Source of the DNA: Escherichia phage FV3
Reading direction: 5' to 3' (one strand)
Length of the DNA: 64,000 bases
Sequence record: NC_019517.1
This document shows positions 29,201 to 57,237 of this stretch, piece by piece (the first letter of the stretch is position 1; each line of letters starts with the position of its first letter). Under the pieces are notes generated by a model that saw only the letters and a list, made by a program, of their open reading frames with translations, searched no databases and was not told the DNA's origin. A program made the position numbers and the translations under genes.

Positions 29201-29277
29201 TGGTCTCCACGGAGTGATTCGAACACTCGACCTCCTGATCCCAAATCAGGCGCTCTACCAAGCTGAGCTACGCGGAG
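29201..29277 (-). tRNA. tRNA-Pro: tRNA-Pro (anticodon UGG)
   Basis: Hand-folded cloverleaf: 7-bp acceptor stem, T-arm with TTCGAAT loop, anticodon loop UUUGGGA, encoded CCA. Confidence 0.7.
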
Positions 29278-29288
29278 TATTTATAATT

Positions 29289-29363
29289 TGGTGGCCCTGG
29301 GTGGAATTGAACCACCGTCTGGCGATTATGAGTCGCTTGCTTGAACCTTCCAGCTACAGGGCC
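29289..29363 (-). tRNA. tRNA-Met: tRNA-Met/Ile2-type (anticodon CAU)
   Basis: Cloverleaf with perfect acceptor stem GGCCCTG/CAGGGCC, anticodon loop CUCAUAA, encoded CCA. Met versus lysidine-Ile cannot be distinguished. Confidence 0.65.
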
Positions 29364-29364
29364 A

Positions 29365-29440
29365 TGGTGCTGATAGCAGGACTCGAACCTGCAACCTATT
29401 GATTACAAATCAATTGCACTACCAATTGTGCTACATCAGC
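29365..29440 (-). tRNA. tRNA-Thr: tRNA-Thr (anticodon UGU)
   Basis: Cloverleaf: acceptor GCTGATG/TATCAGC, D-arm GCAC/GTGC, anticodon stem ATTGA/TCAAT with loop UUUGUAA, T-loop TTCGAGT, encoded CCA. Confidence 0.7.
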
Positions 29441-29447
29441 AAAAAGG

Positions 29448-29544
29448 TGCTAGGTGATGGAATCGAACCACCTATGTATTCAACGACTACCTCGTCTATT
29501 TTCAGGATTAAAAATCCTCGCCCTTGCCAAAGGGCTTACCTAGC
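29448..29544 (-). tRNA. Atypical tRNA-like gene (97 nt; possible UUU/Lys anticodon, about 30-nt extra arm, no encoded CCA)
   Basis: Perfect 7-bp acceptor (GCTAGGT/ACCTAGC), canonical D-arm (GCCC-TTTGGCAA-GGGC) and T-arm (GGTGG-TTCGATT-CCATC), but anticodon stem is 4 bp plus a mismatch and an unusually long region lies between anticodon arm and T-arm. Confidence 0.4.
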
Positions 29545-29642
29545 TCAGTATGTTGACCATGTTGCTAGTCGGCGATGACGACTGTAACATTTGATAATCC
29601 GGTTCTGCTTCCGGCTTTCGCTTAATTACAAGGTCAACAATA

Positions 29643-29733
29643 TGGCTGAGGGTAATGGAATCGAACCATCATCGAGTCATCCTCAACGGGACGGTTTTCA
29701 AGACCGCTTGAGCACCATTGCTCCCTACCCTCA
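29643..29733 (-). tRNA. tRNA-Ser: tRNA-Ser (anticodon UGA), class II
   Basis: 91-nt cloverleaf with long variable arm; anticodon stem GCGGT/ACCGT, loop CUUGAAA; encoded CCA. Confidence 0.65.
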
Positions 29734-29847
29734 TTTATAAACAATACTGATAATGACACTGATTTTCGAGCAGTTAGTGACTAGTATAAACGACGATAAA
29801 TATCAATGCCATTATCTGTATGATTTATGCATTTAAAAATATAAATT

Positions 29848-29934
29848 TGGTGGGGAGTGGTGGAGTCGAACCACCCGAGTCGCAATGACAATAGATTTAC
29901 AGTCTACACCGCTACCTCTACGGGATAACTCCCC
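29848..29934 (-). tRNA. tRNA-Tyr: tRNA-Tyr (anticodon GUA), class II
   Basis: 87-nt cloverleaf; acceptor GGGGAGT/ACTCCCC, anticodon loop CUGUAAA, T-loop TTCGACT, encoded CCA. Confidence 0.65.
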
Positions 29935-29938
29935 AATT

Positions 29939-30013
29939 TGGCACCCCGTACTGGACTCGAACCAGTGTCAACGGCTTAGAAGGCCGCTGCTTTATCCACT
30001 AAGCTAACAGGGC
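29939..30013 (-). tRNA. tRNA-Arg: tRNA-Arg (anticodon UCU)
   Basis: 75-nt cloverleaf; anticodon stem GCGGC/GCCGT, loop CUUCUAA; T-loop TTCGAGT; encoded CCA. Confidence 0.65.
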
Positions 30014-53360: not shown

Positions 53361-53639
53361 ATGAGCTGCGAAAAATCTTTTTTCATCATCATTTACGGTA
53401 AGGATAACTGCCCACATTGTGTAAGAGCAAAAGAATTTGCAGTCAGTAAAGGCATACCTTTCGTATACAAGACGCTAGGTGAAGGATACACAAAAGAAGA
53501 GCTTATCGAGAAGTGTAGCCCATTTGTTCCCAGAACGTTGCCTCAGATCTTCTTGGAAAGCAACCTTGACAGTATCCACATAGGTGGTGCTGACGATTTC
53601 ATCTCTTTTGTTAAGAATGGTTTTGGAGAGAAAAAGTGA
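53361..53639 (+). CDS. Glutaredoxin-like protein (NrdH/Grx-type)
   Basis: 92-aa ORF with CPHC active-site motif (GKDNCPHCVRAKEF). Confidence 0.6.
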   Translation: MSCEKSFFIIIYGKDNCPHCVRAKEFAVSKGIPFVYKTLGEGYTKEELIEKCSPFVPRTLPQIFLESNLDSIHIGGADDFISFVKNGFGEKK

Positions 53640-54487
53640 AAGTTGTAAAACGGGACGGTAGAGAAGAGTTTTATAACGGAATTAAGGTGATCAAGGCGGC
53701 AGAGTCCGCCTTACTTGAGTCTGGACATACTGAAGAAGAAGCTTACCGGATTGCCTGTGCGGTTAATGAAGTTGTTGCCAACAATCTGCCAACTGACCAG
53801 TGCACGATCTCTGTAAAAAATATCCATATCCTTGTTGAAGATGCTCTTATGGATATGGGTTTAAAATGTGCAGCCAGAGAATACATCCAGTATAGACAGA
53901 CAAGAGATAATAACAGAGAGGCAGGTGGAAAACTGCTTGCCGATATTAGTGGCTTCTTGGATCGTACTTGTGATGAATTTACAAAAGAAAACGCAAATAA
54001 GCCTACTAATCATGTACACACTCATCGTGACCTGCTTGCAGGAATCCTTAGCAAACATCTTGCATCAACACAGATCCTGCCAGACCGTGTCTCAGAAGAG
54101 CACAACAAAGGCTTCATCCATGTGCATGATCTTGACTACCTGATCAGTCCGTTAACAAACTGTTGTTTGGTGAATTATCCGGATATGCTGGAAAACGGAT
54201 TCAACATTGGCAACGCCCATGTCAGTAAGCCGAAGTCAATAGGGGTTGCAACAACAATCCTTAGCCAAATCTCTAGTGCAGTAGCTAGTGCTCAATATGG
54301 CGGTCAGACCATGAGTCATATTGATCATTATTTGGCACAGTATGCTGAAGCAACTTATGAGAAGAACCTTAAATTTTGTCAGGAACATTGGTTGCCAGAT
54401 GCTGAGACTGTTGCAATGCAAATGACAGATAAAGACGTGTTTGATAGTATGCAAACTTTGCTCTACCAAATCAATACGTTAACTTCT
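53636..54487 (+). CDS. nrdD: Anaerobic ribonucleotide reductase NrdD, exon 1
   Basis: GTG start overlapping the glutaredoxin stop; N-terminal ATP-cone (KVVKRDGREEF); frame closes at VNG* shortly after a conserved ...NTLTS segment, while the remainder of NrdD resumes at 55283. Exon boundary approximate. Confidence 0.65.
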
Positions 54488-55282
54488 GTCAACGGTTAAC
54501 AAACTGGCCGTTGTAAAACTCTCCTAACCTCATAAGAGGGGTCGGTAAATCCGGCTAACGGGGAACGCTAAGGCGAAAGCTATGCCAATCCCGTGACTAG
54601 TTCTTACAGGAGTTGGAACGGTTGTAACGACTAACGAAAGGCAGAGATGCTTGACAAACATTTCTGAACCGAGTAGTGTAGGGGTTAGTTGAAATACTAA
54701 CTTCGAAAGGGAGAGACTCTATGAAAAAGATCATTCTTAATGGTGAAGAATCGAACTACGTGATTGATGAGGTGGGAAACGTATACGGAAAACGTGGAAT
54801 GCTGCACCCCATATTGTGGGGAGGTTATGGAAAAGGTAACAAGCATGTTAAACGCCGCTATATGTATTCTTTCAACCACAAAGGTAAGAAGATTCGAATC
54901 CAAACTTCAAGGGTTGTTGCCTTGTATTGTTTGCCAGATGTCCCAGAAGACCCTGAAAACTGGGAAGTGAATCATAAAGATGGCAATACATTGAATGATC
55001 ATCCGTCTAACCTAGAGTGGGTTTTGCCGGAAGATAATAAGAGACATGCTTTCCGAACAGGGCTTTGTCCAGGCAAGTGCTACAGGAAAGTGCAGGCATA
55101 CCAAGGGAAAACCTTGGTGGGTGAATATCCTTCACTCTATGCCTGTGCAAAAGCCTTAAATTTGAACGTAGGGAACGTCCATAGGGCTATCGAAGGAAAT
55201 GCCGAAGGTAAGCATCTCACAATAAAGGGTTATTATCTTATTGAAGTAGAGTAAGAGATAGTCTGGCCCTGTGGAAACACAG
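54488..55282 (+). mobile_element. Putative group I intron in nrdD carrying an HNH homing endonuclease ORF
   Basis: About 795 nt between two halves of one NrdD reading frame (length divisible by 3, both halves same frame); 5' about 230 nt are structured and noncoding, then HNH ORF 54721..55254. Exon 1 ends in U; intron ends in G. Confidence 0.5.
54721..55254 (+). CDS. Intron-encoded HNH homing endonuclease
   Basis: 177-aa ORF with HNH motif (EVNHKDGNTLNDHPSNLEWVLPEDNKRH) inside the nrdD interruption; own SD (GGGAGAG). Confidence 0.65.
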   Translation: MKKIILNGEESNYVIDEVGNVYGKRGMLHPILWGGYGKGNKHVKRRYMYSFNHKGKKIRIQTSRVVALYCLPDVPEDPENWEVNHKDGNTLNDHPSNLEWVLPEDNKRHAFRTGLCPGKCYRKVQAYQGKTLVGEYPSLYACAKALNLNVGNVHRAIEGNAEGKHLTIKGYYLIEVE

Positions 55283-56554
55283 GGGTGGAGACAGCAGACT
55301 CCATTCATCACATTAAGTTTAGGGCTGGATACTTCGGTCTTTGGTAGAATGATTACCAAAAACTACTTGAAAGTTCACAAAATGGGTCTTGGTGAAGAAC
55401 GGATCACACCTGTGTTCCCTAAAGTGCTGTTCTTCTTAGAGGAGGGTGTCAACATGAACCCTGGGGATCCTAACTACAATTTGAAACGATTGGCCCTAGA
55501 ATGCTCTGCAGAGCGGATTTATCCTGACTTTGTTTCTGTTCCGCTAAATCGTAAAGTGACAGGTTCAACAGACGGCAAAGTAACAAGCATGGGATGTAGG
55601 TCGTTCCTTGGCAAATACGTTACCCCGGAGGGTGATGAAAAATACCTTGGCAGATTCAACTTGGGTGTTGTTAGCCTTAACCTACCAATGATTGCGGCAA
55701 AAGCTAAGACGGAAGGTATTGATTTCTTTGCAGTTCTTGACGAATACTTGGATCTTGCATACGAGGCTCACCTTGTAAGGGTTAACCGTCTAAAAGGAAC
55801 AAAGGCAGGGCAGAACCCTATCATGTGGTGTGAAGGAGCTCTTGCTCGCCTGGATCCTGAAGAGAGTATCGATAAACTCTTCTATGACGGGTACGCTTCC
55901 ATCAGTATTGGGTATATTGGTGTGTATGAAACCTGTCAGATTTTGGGCAGAGAGGGTGACAAGGCTTTAGCTCTTGGAATCCTTCAGCACATGAAAGATG
56001 CTTGTGATCGATATAAGAAGGAAAGTGGACTAGCATTTAGCTTGTACGGCACACCTTCTGAGAGTTTATGCTATAAAGCTGCAACCTGTCTGGATCGTGA
56101 ATACCCAGAAGTGTTGAAGCACGAGCATGAATACCTCACCAACAGTTTCCATCAGCCGGTATGGATCAATAGCTCGCCTTTTGATAAGTGGAAGTATGAG
56201 GAAGGTTTTGCTATGATCTCCTCTGGTGGCAACATTGGGGACATAGAGACACCGAATCTGAAAAACAACTTAGATGCTTTAGAAGCTCTTGTTGATTTCG
56301 GATATAAACATATTATGTATTTTGGTATTAACCAGCCTGTGGATAAATGTCTTAAGTGTGGATTCTCTGGCGAGTTCAGTGCAACAGCTAAAGGCTTTGT
56401 ATGCCCAGAGTGTGGAAACCATGAAGAAGGAACGATCAGTGTGATCAGACGCGTATCCGGGTATCTGTCCAGTCCAAACTCCCGCCCTTACAATAAGGGT
56501 AAGCAAGCTGAGGTTATAGAACGGGTTAAGCACTACGGAAGTTGTGGTTGCTGA
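55283..56554 (+). CDS. nrdD: Anaerobic ribonucleotide reductase NrdD, exon 2
   Basis: Conserved NrdD core (MGCRSFL, FNLGVVSLNLP), C-terminal zinc site (CLKCG...CPECG) and glycyl-radical motif (RVSGYLS). Confidence 0.7.
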   Translation, partial: GWRQQTPFITLSLGLDTSVFGRMITKNYLKVHKMGLGEERITPVFPKVLFFLEEGVNMNPGDPNYNLKRLALECSAERIYPDFVSVPLNRKVTGSTDGKVTSMGCRSFLGKYVTPEGDEKYLGRFNLGVVSLNLPMIAAKAKTEGIDFFAVLDEYLDLAYEAHLVRVNRLKGTKAGQNPIMWCEGALARLDPEESIDKLFYDGYASISIGYIGVYETCQILGREGDKALALGILQHMKDACDRYKKESGLAFSLYGTPSESLCYKAATCLDREYPEVLKHEHEYLTNSFHQPVWINSSPFDKWKYEEGFAMISSGGNIGDIETPNLKNNLDALEALVDFGYKHIMYFGINQPVDKCLKCGFSGEFSATAKGFVCPECGNHEEGTISVIRRVSGYLSSPNSRPYNKGKQAEVIERVKHYGSCGC

Positions 56555-56557
56555 TAC

Positions 56558-56587
56558 TTGACAAAAGCCACAAGGATGTGGCATATT
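56558..56587 (+). promoter_or_regulatory. Promoter with palindromic operator-like element upstream of nrdG unit
   Basis: TTGACA (56558-56563), spacer containing palindrome GCCACA-AGGA-TGTGGC (56566-56581), -10-like CATATT (56582-56587). Confidence 0.5.
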
Positions 56588-56617: not shown

Positions 56618-56734
56618 ATGTCTACAGGTATTTATAAAATTTGCAAGTGTGGTTGTCATTGCAATCTTCGTTGGTGTAAGGCACTGGACGATTTTATTTG
56701 GCATTGTCCTAAATGCGACGCGGAGTATGTATGA
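56618..56734 (+). CDS. Small Cys-rich protein (38 aa), translationally coupled to nrdG
   Basis: AGGAGG SD then ATG 56618; MSTGIYKICKCGCHCNLRWCKALDDFIWHCPKCDAEYV; stop overlaps the nrdG start (ATGA). Below the ORF-track size cutoff. Confidence 0.4.
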   Translation: MSTGIYKICKCGCHCNLRWCKALDDFIWHCPKCDAEYV

Positions 56735-57207: not shown

Positions 57208-57237
57208 TTGACAAAGTCTTGTTAAGTTGGTTATAAT
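57208..57237 (+). promoter_or_regulatory. Sigma70-type promoter
   Basis: TTGACA (57208-57213), 18 nt, TATAAT (57232-57237); a second -35-like TTGACT at 57196. Confidence 0.6.

What the first reader, a model, noticed from the sequence alone, without database searches (positions are those of the whole stretch)
53636..56554. nrdD interrupted by a roughly 0.8-kb intron-like element carrying an HNH endonuclease
The NrdD reading frame stops at VNG* just after a conserved ...NTLTS segment and resumes in the same frame at about 55283 with the rest of the conserved core (…QTPFITLSLGLDTS…, MGCRSFL, FNLGVVSLNLP, zinc site, glycyl-radical motif). The intervening 795 nt (a multiple of 3) start with about 230 nt of structured noncoding sequence and then a free-standing HNH ORF with its own SD. 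This matches a self-splicing group I intron with a homing endonuclease, as known in nrd genes of T-even phages, although exact splice sites cannot be fixed by eye.
Basis: partly seen in the sequence, partly recalled or inferred. Interest (0 to 1): 0.55.

Follow-up and report, generated by a model that had tools for sequence, protein, structure and literature searches.

The report
Group I intron in phage nrdD
The anaerobic ribonucleotide reductase gene of this rV5-like coliphage is interrupted by a 798-base group I intron that carries its own homing-endonuclease gene; this is a classic kind of phage mobile element, and database curators have already annotated it as an intron in near-identical phages.

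Summary
The window comes from a Vequintavirus (rV5/FFH2-like, about 95% identical). Intron-less relatives read ...VNG|QTPF..., which fixes the intron at 54497-55294 (798 nt), with the 5' splice site after U54496 and a terminal G at 55294. The spliced 706-aa NrdD aligns without a gap to T4 NrdD. The same junction, applied to two BASEL phages, reproduces their GenBank joined proteins exactly. The RNA has a group IA core: P1 with a U.G pair, P3/P7 pseudoknot, P4-P6, P7.1/P7.2, P8 and P9. Five helices show compensatory changes between two lineages. The 177-aa ORF sits in the P8 loop and resembles the nicking HNH endonuclease I-HmuI. Of 119 close relatives, 26 carry intron plus ORF, 14 carry a 257-nt ORF-less intron, and about 79 appear to carry neither. 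This is not the T4 nrdD intron, which sits about 11 codons upstream and encodes a GIY-YIG enzyme. The one unusual point is that the intron scores only 25-30 bits on Rfam RF00028 (threshold 50; T4 control 105), probably because it has two extra hairpins between P3 and P4. Other phage introns share that layout. Splicing itself has not been tested. Interest is low to moderate.

The parts
53636..54496 (+). nrdD exon 1 (287 codons; ATP-cone plus the N-terminal part of the NrdD core). It starts at a GTG that overlaps the glutaredoxin stop codon.
   Evidence: ORF. Pfam ATP-cone 4.4e-14 and NRDD profile positions 1-154. End fixed by intron-less alleles. 38 nt differences but 0 aa differences versus AlexBoehm.
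54497..55294 (+). Group I (IA-type) intron, 798 nt. Its first three bases, UAA, stop the exon-1 reading frame.
   Evidence: Boundaries from intron-less YP-6 and JeffSchatz. RF00028 E = 5e-4 here and 2e-4 for the ORF-less homologue. The spliced products of two relatives are identical to GenBank joined CDSs.
54490..54513 (+). P1: exon CAACGGU (54490-54496) pairs with the internal guide GCCGUUG (54507-54513). U54496.G54507 is the wobble pair at the 5' splice site.
   Evidence: A compensatory change occurs in the ORF-less lineage (AAACGGU/GCCGUUU).
54504..54506 (+). Possible P10: CUG next to the guide sequence pairs with the first three exon-2 bases, CAG (55295-55297).
   Evidence: Read from the sequence. 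Only 2 of 3 pairs are kept in the ORF-less lineage, so this is tentative.
54519..54524 (+). P3 5' strand, CUCUCC. It pairs with 54710-54715.
   Evidence: Compensatory change CUCUGC/GCAGAG in L004 and L011. P3 covaries across the wider family.
54528..54554 (+). Two extra hairpins between P3 and P4, here called P3.1 (54528-54539) and P3.2 (54542-54554).
   Evidence: P3.2 has a compensatory G-C to A-U change. The same two-hairpin layout is seen in Bacillus phage S4-2 and the IMG/VR introns.
54558..54594 (+). P4 (ACGGGG/UCCCGU) enclosing P5/P5a with a GAAA loop.
   Evidence: Matches the T4 nrdD intron motif ACGGG..CAAUCCGU.
54600..54619 (+). P6 hairpin.
   Evidence: One mismatch here; compensatory changes in the ORF-less lineage.
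54629..54633 (+). P7 5' strand, GACUA, preceded by GUUGUAAC. It pairs with 55259-55263.
   Evidence: Same sequence as in the T4 nrdD intron.
54634..54704 (+). P7.1 (extended; core helix 54642-54649 / 54659-54666) and P7.2 (54681-54704), the peripheral pair typical of subgroup IA.
   Evidence: The ORF-less lineage has a short P7.1 (ACC-UUUU-GGU) at the same place.
54710..54715 (+). P3 3' strand, GGAGAG. It also serves as the Shine-Dalgarno sequence (GGAG) of the HNH ORF.
54716..54721 (+). P8 5' strand, ACUCUA (its last A is the A of the HNH AUG). It pairs with UAGAGU at 55247-55252.
   Evidence: A-U becomes G.U in MaxBurger.
54721..55254 (+). HNH homing-endonuclease ORF (177 aa, I-HmuI-like), located in the P8 loop.
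   Evidence: Pfam HNH_3 29.4 bits against a cutoff of 24.8. PDB 1U3E I-HmuI E = 5e-4, colinear over residues 8-160. PHROG 59 2e-26. Absent from 14 intron-bearing relatives.
55247..55263 (+). P8 3' strand (55247-55252, overlapping the ORF stop codon), J8/7 AAGAGA, and P7 3' strand UAGUC (55259-55263).
   Evidence: Matches the consensus AAGAUAUAGUC.
55267..55294 (+). P9 hairpin (CCCUGUG-GAAA-CACAGGG, 55267-55284) and a 10-nt tail ending in the terminal G55294.
   Evidence: Compensatory C-G to U-A change in P9. A 1-nt indel at 55285-55286 in relatives shows the tail is non-coding.
55295..56554 (+). nrdD exon 2 (QTPF..., catalytic Cys motif MGCRSFL, zinc site, glycyl-radical domain).
   Evidence: Pfam NRDD profile 156-562 and Gly_radical. 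Gapless alignment to T4 NrdD 1H78.

Best explanation
This is a mobile group I (subgroup IA-like) self-splicing intron of 798 nt (54497-55294). It lies in phase 0 between the Gly and Gln codons of the conserved NGQTPF motif of the phage's class III ribonucleotide reductase gene nrdD. Inferred mechanism: the pre-mRNA folds into the ribozyme core. An external guanosine attacks after U54496, which sits in the U.G pair of P1. The freed exon-1 3' OH then attacks after the terminal G55294. This joins ...GUC AAC GGU to CAG ACU CCA... and yields one 706-aa NrdD. The P8 loop carries a 177-aa I-HmuI-like HNH endonuclease gene. By analogy with I-HmuI, that enzyme would nick the intron-less nrdD allele of a co-infecting relative, and repair would copy the intron in (homing). 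The endonuclease's ribosome-binding site is the 3' strand of P3, and its AUG and stop codon lie in the two strands of P8. Translation of the endonuclease and folding of the ribozyme should therefore be mutually exclusive. What the sequence shows directly: the boundaries, the fold, covariation, the optional presence of intron and ORF, and purifying selection on both exons. What is inferred: catalysis, nicking, homing, and the coupling between translation and splicing.
For: Presence/absence: of 119 close nrdD relatives, 40 carry the intron, 26 with the ORF and 14 as a 257-nt ORF-less form. Sampled records without an intron match cross the junction in a single uninterrupted piece. The two intron-less alleles I read, YP-6 and JeffSchatz, give GTC AAC GGG CAA ACC CCA TTC = VNGQTPF. 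Junction: the spliced protein aligns without a gap to T4 NrdD 1H78 (5e-165) and from residue 1 to 9D3X. Pfam profile positions 154 and 156 abut at the junction. The same junction applied to MaxBurger and AlexBoehm gives proteins identical to GenBank QXV82698.1 and QXV75731.1. RNA: all helices occur in canonical order, with 78 of 79 pairs standard in the window and 73 of 73 in the ORF-less form. Double-sided compensatory changes between the two lineages occur in P1, P3, P3.2, P6 and P9, and single-sided G.U changes occur in P3.1, P7.1, P7.2 and P8. The motif order matches the proven T4 nrdD intron. RF00028 gives E = 5e-4 here, and E = 2e-4 end to end on the ORF-less copy. The ORF-less copy folds better than shuffled sequence, z = -3.8. 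ORF: HNH_3 scores above the Pfam cutoff, and the protein is colinear with I-HmuI. Need for splicing: relatives have no in-frame start codon upstream of exon 2. Exon 1 shows 38 nt and 0 aa differences, and exon 2 shows 99 nt and 11 aa differences, between intron-bearing lineages. The base before the intron is T in all 6 intron-bearing alleles examined and G in the two intact intron-less alleles.
Against: The RF00028 score is 25.1 bits here and 29.8 bits for the ORF-less copy. Both are below the curated threshold of 50, whereas the T4 nrdD intron scores 105 bits in the same test. The two hairpins between P3 and P4 are non-canonical, and P6 has one mismatch. P10 is only 3 bp here and 2 bp in the other lineage. 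Only two sequence lineages of this intron exist in the collections, so covariation rests on few independent events. No RNA or biochemical data are available. A related subfamily paper reports one HNH-associated 'intron' that did not splice in RT-PCR (PMC7344957). The similarity to I-HmuI is weak (E = 5e-4), and its C-terminal NUMOD-like domain scores below the Pfam cutoff.
Confidence: 0.9

Rival explanations
1. It is a decayed or splicing-incompetent intron. The element was once a group I intron but no longer splices efficiently, so nrdD in this phage is non-functional or depends on a host or phage factor.
For: The Rfam score is well below threshold while the T4 control scores high. The insertion between P3 and P4 is non-canonical. 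A non-splicing HNH-associated insertion has been reported in a related subfamily (PMC7344957). nrdD may be dispensable in aerobic culture, since V18 appears to carry a frameshifted nrdD.
Against: Both exons are under strong purifying selection in the intron-bearing lineages. All core helices are intact and are maintained by compensatory changes. The same non-canonical layout is conserved in unrelated phage introns in essential genes, which argues that it is functional.
Confidence: 0.06
2. It is a gene split by a free-standing homing endonuclease without splicing, as with Aeromonas phage Aeh1 nrdA-a/nrdA-b and mobE. The two halves would be translated separately and assemble after translation.
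For: In this window the second half happens to be an ORF with a GTG start at 55271. Precedent is described in PMC3653736 and PMC7344957.
Against: In relatives with a 797-nt or 257-nt intron there is no in-frame start codon upstream of exon 2. The first downstream start would remove QTPFITLSLGLDTSVFGR. The GTG lies in the P9 stem. About 260 nt of conserved, structured non-coding RNA persist even where the endonuclease gene is absent, which a free-standing endonuclease gene would not explain.
Confidence: 0.02
3. It is another kind of intervening element, such as an intein, a group II intron or translational bypassing.
For: None beyond the fact that the gene is interrupted.
Against: The insertion begins with a stop codon and is not one in-frame ORF, so it is not an intein. 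It encodes no reverse transcriptase and has no group II match, whereas it does give a group I match. At 798 nt it is far beyond any known bypass.
Confidence: 0.01

Closest known systems
Bacillus phage SPO1 DNA-polymerase group I intron encoding I-HmuI (PDB 1U3E), and related introns encoding nicking HNH enzymes (I-BasI, I-TwoI, I-PfoP3I)
   Same: Both are phage group IA introns in a nucleotide-metabolism or replication gene that carry an HNH endonuclease of about 175 aa. The ORF here aligns colinearly with I-HmuI over residues 8-160 and has the same HNH_3 motif. Reviews describe nick-initiated homing for this class (PMC3984707).
   Different: The host gene (nrdD) and the host (a coliphage) differ. 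Protein similarity is weak (E = 5e-4). Nicking activity and the target site are unknown here. From memory, the SPO1 ORF also lies in a peripheral loop of the intron; I did not test this.
T4 nrdD (sunY) group IA intron encoding I-TevII
   Same: The host gene is the same and so is the conserved protein segment. The core motifs and their order are the same: the intron starts UAAC, then UAAAA-P3, no P2, ACGGG...CAAUCCGU, AACGACUA, P7.1/P7.2, GAAAC-P3', AAGAUAUAGUC and P9.
   Different: The T4 intron sits about 11 codons upstream, at AYE(Y)|EVNTLFSSNGQTPF, in a different codon phase. Its ORF is GIY-YIG and lies downstream of P9, not HNH in P8. T4 has no hairpins between P3 and P4 and scores 105 bits on RF00028, against 25-30 bits here.
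The same intron as annotated in BASEL Vequintavirus genomes (MaxBurger, EmilHeitz and WalterGehring with ORF; AlexBoehm, HeinrichReichert and RudolfGeigy without)
   Same: DNA identity is 92-95%. The CDS is annotated as a two-piece join plus a 'putative homing endonuclease'. My junction reproduces their proteins exactly. The paper states that intron boundaries were set by comparative genomics (PMC8594841).
   Different: Those records start NrdD at an internal ATG (636 aa) and so omit the ATP-cone. I found no published description of the RNA structure and no splicing test.
Aeromonas phage Aeh1 nrdA split by mobE (no splicing)
   Same: A ribonucleotide reductase gene interrupted by an HNH endonuclease gene.
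   Different: Here a ribozyme core flanks the ORF and persists without it, and exon 2 has no translation start of its own.

Membership tests
Group I self-splicing intron | The 5' splice site follows a U that forms a U.G wobble pair in P1 with an internal guide sequence just inside the intron. | tested here: met
   CAACGGU (54490-54496) pairs with GCCGUUG (54507-54513), giving U54496.G54507. A compensatory C-G to A-U change occurs in the ORF-less lineage.
Group I self-splicing intron | The intron ends in a G (omega G), and its removal restores the uninterrupted gene. | tested here: met
   G55294. Intron-less alleles read VNG|QTPF. The alignment to T4 NrdD has no gap. The spliced proteins are identical to GenBank joined CDSs.
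Group I self-splicing intron | Conserved core P3-P9 in canonical order, with the P3/P7 pseudoknot and the conserved P4, P7 and J8/7 sequences. | tested here: met
   All helices were found in order, with 78 of 79 standard pairs. The motifs match the T4 nrdD intron and the RF00028 consensus AAGAUAUAGUC.
Group I self-splicing intron | Base pairs are maintained by compensatory substitutions. | tested here: met
   Double-sided changes occur in P1, P3, P3.2, P6 and P9 between the two Vequintavirus lineages. P3 covaries across the wider family. Only two lineages exist, so the number of independent events is small.
Group I self-splicing intron | Reaches the curated Rfam RF00028 gathering score of 50 bits. 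| tested here: not met
   25.1 bits (E = 5e-4) in the window and 29.8 bits (E = 2e-4, model positions 1-253) for the ORF-less copy. The T4 nrdD control scores 105.3 bits. Other introns with the same layout also fall below the threshold.
Group I self-splicing intron | Guanosine-dependent autocatalytic splicing. | not testable with these tools
   Needs an in vitro transcription and GTP-labelling assay, or RT-PCR.
Subgroup IA (IA2-like) | P7.1 and P7.2 lie between P7 and the 3' strand of P3. | tested here: met
   54634-54704. Same position as in T4 nrdD.
Subgroup IA (IA2-like) | P3 is followed directly by a short J3/4 and then P4. | tested here: not met
   Two hairpins (54528-54554) lie between P3 and P4. 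An insertion at this position is called 'noncanonical' for yeast aI5beta (PMC2396411).
I-HmuI-like HNH homing endonuclease | An HNH (HNH_3) catalytic motif. | tested here: met
   PF13392 scores 29.4 bits against a cutoff of 24.8. The motif aligns with VDHKDGN...NLRWV of I-HmuI.
I-HmuI-like HNH homing endonuclease | Overall architecture colinear with I-HmuI, including the C-terminal NUMOD-like DNA-binding domain. | tested here: inconclusive
   1U3E gives E = 5e-4 over residues 8-160 against 8-159. PF22083 scores 18.4 bits against a cutoff of 27.
I-HmuI-like HNH homing endonuclease | Site-specific nicking or cleavage of the intron-less allele, and homing in mixed infection. | not testable with these tools
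   Only indirect support: both the intron and the ORF are optional among close relatives.
T4 nrdD (sunY) intron / I-TevII | Same insertion site and a GIY-YIG ORF. | tested here: not met
   The site is about 11 codons upstream in T4, and the ORF there is GIY-YIG I-TevII.
Non-spliced split gene (Aeh1 nrdA/mobE type) | The downstream half has its own start codon and ribosome-binding site, and no ribozyme is present. | tested here: not met
   Relatives have no in-frame start upstream of exon 2, and a ribozyme core is present.

The most novel reading that the evidence does not exclude
This intron may belong to a structurally distinct, so far un-modelled set of phage group IA introns. Its members have two conserved-position hairpins inserted between P3 and P4, with or without P2. 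They occur in different essential genes of coliphages, Bacillus phages and uncultured phages, and the standard Rfam group I model systematically scores them below threshold. Many such introns would then go unannotated, and the interrupted genes would be read as 'split' or as pseudogenes. In the coliphage version the endonuclease's ribosome-binding site and start codon form part of P3 and P8, which would make endonuclease translation and splicing mutually exclusive.
Probability: 0.3. Interest if true: 0.4.

Novelty: new member of a known kind. Interest (0 to 1): 0.25.

Why it matters
Practically, it means nrdD in this phage should be annotated as one spliced gene of 706 aa. Many relatives' records list it as two or three 'nrdD' fragments, or as a protein truncated at its N-terminus. 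Biologically, Vequintavirus nrdD offers a natural series of alleles at two intron sites: no intron, intron with ORF, and intron without ORF. All of them occur in otherwise 90-98% identical genomes that grow on E. coli K-12. That makes a convenient system for studying homing by nicking HNH enzymes, co-conversion and intron loss. The sub-threshold Rfam score shows that covariance-model scans miss this intron layout.

Tried and rejected
(1) My first 3' splice-site guess was G55288, giving VNG|RQQTPF. It was based on frame and on the 1-nt indel. I rejected it because intron-less alleles match the predicted junction over 394 nt, not 400, and read VNGQTPF. (2) The Rfam gathering-threshold scan of the whole window found only tRNAs. 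A permissive whole-window scan at E <= 0.01 also listed no intron match, neither this intron nor any other. (3) My first core pattern had the wrong spacing and found nothing in viral contigs. The corrected pattern found nothing in genome contigs, so I found no bacterial chromosomal copies. (4) An automated search for the best P3 helix recovered the P3 assigned by hand cleanly in only 4 of the 10 sequences, because P7.1 and other complementary segments compete and, in the window, the search region falls inside the ORF. The P3 assignments therefore rest mainly on reading the sequences. (5) Literature searches for a name for the helices between P3 and P4, or for a description of this intron in rV5-like phages, found neither. 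The rV5 paper reports only terminase introns. (6) I considered and rejected an intein, a group II intron, translational bypassing and a free-standing endonuclease split.
Full report
WHAT IS THERE. The region holds three same-strand ORFs. The first (53636..54499) ends ...YQINTLTSVNG*. The second (54721..55254) is 177 aa. The third (55271..56554) runs to the glycyl-radical C-terminus. Pfam places the first at positions 1-154 of the NRDD profile, preceded by an ATP-cone, and the third at positions 156-562 plus the Gly_radical domain. The middle ORF is an HNH_3 endonuclease. The neighbours are nrdB, glutaredoxin and nrdG. The window is a Vequintavirus (rV5/FFH2-like): 119 phage records match this stretch at 90-99% identity.

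BOUNDARIES. Relatives differ in a way that fixes the element. MaxBurger and phita32 have the same insertion but with a 1-nt deletion at window 55285-55286, so the 'same frame, multiple of three' property is accidental. AlexBoehm and 241Ecol014PP keep the flanking non-coding RNA but lack the ORF. A query made of my first predicted exon junction matched sampled relatives in a single uninterrupted piece, but over 394 nt, not 400. Of these, YP-6 and JeffSchatz read GTC AAC GGG CAA ACC CCA TTC = V-N-G-Q-T-P-F. The intron is therefore 54497-55294 (798 nt). Exon 1 ends at U54496, the intron ends at G55294, and exon 2 starts with CAG ACT CCA TTC. The spliced 706-aa protein aligns without a gap across the junction to T4 NrdD (1H78, 5e-165) and from residue 1 to a 734-aa NrdD (9D3X). 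Applying the same junction to MaxBurger and AlexBoehm gives proteins that are letter-for-letter GenBank QXV82698.1 and QXV75731.1. Those records annotate nrdD as a two-piece join. The BASEL paper says intron boundaries were set by comparative genomics (PMC8594841).

THE RNA. Read from the sequence and checked by script:
- P1 is CAACGGU (exon) paired with GCCGUUG, with a U.G pair at the splice site.
- There is no P2.
- P3 is CUCUCC (54519-54524) paired with GGAGAG (54710-54715).
- Two hairpins follow at 54528-54554.
- P4/P5/P5a lie at 54558-54594, with a GAAA loop.
- P6 lies at 54600-54619.
- P7 is GACUA (54629-54633) paired with UAGUC (55259-55263).
- P7.1 and P7.2 lie at 54634-54704.
- P8 is ACUCUA (54716-54721) paired with UAGAGU (55247-55252) and encloses the ORF.
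- J8/7 is AAGAGA.
- P9 lies at 55267-55284, followed by a 10-nt tail ending in G55294.

In the window, 78 of 79 proposed pairs are standard; in the 257-nt ORF-less form, 73 of 73 are. Between the two lineages there are double-sided compensatory changes in P1 (an exon change matched by a guide-sequence change), P3, P3.2, P6 and P9. Single-sided changes to G.U occur in P3.1, P7.1, P7.2 and P8. The ORF-less copy folds better than shuffled sequence (z = -3.8). The order and wording of the motifs match the experimentally established T4 nrdD intron, which I extracted for comparison.

RFAM. No group I match reaches the gathering score in the window. In a permissive scan RF00028 gives 25.1 bits (E = 5e-4) over the 3' core. 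On the ORF-less homologue it gives 29.8 bits (E = 2e-4) over the whole model. As a positive control, the T4 nrdD intron scores 105.3 bits. The shortfall is therefore specific to this intron's layout.

The two hairpins between P3 and P4 are the main departure. They are not a mis-assignment, for three reasons. A Bacillus phage S4-2 intron shares the P4-P5 core, as do the other IMG/VR phage loci found with a core pattern. The members I read have the same layout, P3 5' strand, hairpin, hairpin, GCUA, P4, with P3 covarying. One member (L016) also has a normal P2 upstream. These relatives sit in other genes and also fall below the Rfam threshold. An insertion at this position is called 'noncanonical' for yeast aI5beta (PMC2396411). 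I found no name for it in phage introns.

THE ORF. The 177-aa protein matches HNH_3 above the Pfam cutoff and PHROG 59 at 2e-26. It aligns colinearly (8-160 against 8-159) with I-HmuI, the nicking homing endonuclease of the SPO1 polymerase intron (1U3E, E = 5e-4). The I-HmuI NUMOD-like domain gives a sub-threshold hit. The nearest homologues outside Vequintavirus are HNH genes of Bacillus, Enterococcus, Vibrio and T5-like phages at 30-37% identity. Its GGAG ribosome-binding site is part of the P3 3' strand. Its AUG and its stop codon overlap the two strands of P8. I therefore infer that translating the ORF and folding the ribozyme exclude each other.

EVIDENCE FOR MOBILITY AND FOR THE NEED TO SPLICE. 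Of 119 close relatives, 26 have intron plus ORF, 14 have the ORF-less intron, and about 79 appear to have neither; that last number comes from subtracting the counts, and sampled records confirm it. The base before the intron is T in all 6 intron-bearing alleles examined, as the U.G pair requires, and G in the two intact intron-less alleles. YP-6 differs from the window's exons at only 5 of 400 positions, and 3 of those lie within 6 nt of the insertion site. Between intron-bearing lineages, exon 1 has 38 nucleotide differences and no amino-acid difference, and exon 2 has 99 and 11. Relatives have no in-frame start codon upstream of exon 2, and the window's GTG at 55271 lies in the P9 stem. These points argue against a gene split into two separately translated halves, as in Aeh1 nrdA (PMC3653736, PMC7344957), and against a dead gene.

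COMPARISON WITH WHAT IS KNOWN. This is not the T-even nrdD intron. T4's sits at AYE(Y)|EVNTLFSSNGQTPF, about 11 codons upstream and in a different codon phase, and carries the GIY-YIG enzyme I-TevII after P9. The closest working analogues are the Bacillus phage introns that encode HNH nicking enzymes. The rV5 genome paper reports introns only in the terminase gene (PMC3606486). I found no paper describing this nrdD intron, but GenBank records of near-identical phages annotate it. It is therefore a new, uncharacterised member of a very well-known kind, with a somewhat unusual core layout.

VERDICT. The finding is correct and ordinary. Confidence that this is a group I intron that must splice to give functional NrdD is about 0.9. 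Splicing, nicking and homing remain untested.

Noticed in passing
window 55594/55595 (between GGA and TGT of ...TSMG|CRSFL); relatives L003 2468-3217, L004, L005: Some relatives (YP-6, phita32, 241Ecol014PP) carry a second group I intron of about 750-760 nt with its own 169-aa HNH ORF, inserted directly before the catalytic Cys codon. The site is empty in the window. Its core resembles the T4 td and nrdD introns (RF00028 35 bits). Every combination of the two introns is seen among relatives except intron 2 without its ORF.
   Followed up: partly
L010 (Bacillus phage S4-2), L012-L021 (IMG/VR contigs): A family of phage group I introns shares the core ACGGGGAA-N8-CGAAAG-N6-CAATCCCGTG and two hairpins between P3 and P4. 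From translated flanks they appear to sit in different genes (a DNA polymerase III alpha-like, a ThyX-like and a clamp-loader-like gene). Most give no RF00028 match at E <= 0.01.
   Followed up: partly
L007 (Escherichia phage V18, NC_041937) around locus 1720-1735: V18 has the exon sequence of the ORF-less intron lineage, including the T before the splice site, but no intron. It also lacks 2 nt (CA) at the junction, so nrdD is frameshifted and is not annotated there. This could be an imprecise intron deletion or a sequencing error.
   Followed up: partly
window 53636-53851: NrdD most likely starts at the GTG at 53636, which overlaps the glutaredoxin stop codon and adds an ATP-cone domain (Pfam 4e-14; 707-aa versions exist in relatives). 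Many relatives' records, including the BASEL ones, start it at the internal ATG at 53849 (636 aa).
   Followed up: partly
window 56618-56734 (+): A conserved 38-aa Cys-rich ORF (MSTGIYKICKCGCHCNLRWCKALDDFIWHCPKCDAEYV) lies between nrdD and nrdG. Relatives annotate it as hypothetical, and V18 labels it 'ribonucleotide reductase'.
   Followed up: no
window 29204-30013 (-): A cluster of at least six tRNA genes on the minus strand, plus two weak tRNA-Sec-model hits that are probably long-arm tRNAs.
   Followed up: no
window 57208-57237 (+) and 56567-56582: A perfect 12/12 sigma-70 consensus (TTGACA-18-TATAAT) lies just after nrdG, and a GC-rich hairpin lies just after the nrdD stop codon.
   Followed up: no
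L019 13592-13660: A type II hammerhead ribozyme hit just above the Rfam gathering score (38.7 bits against 37), on an IMG/VR phage contig fetched for another reason.
   Followed up: no
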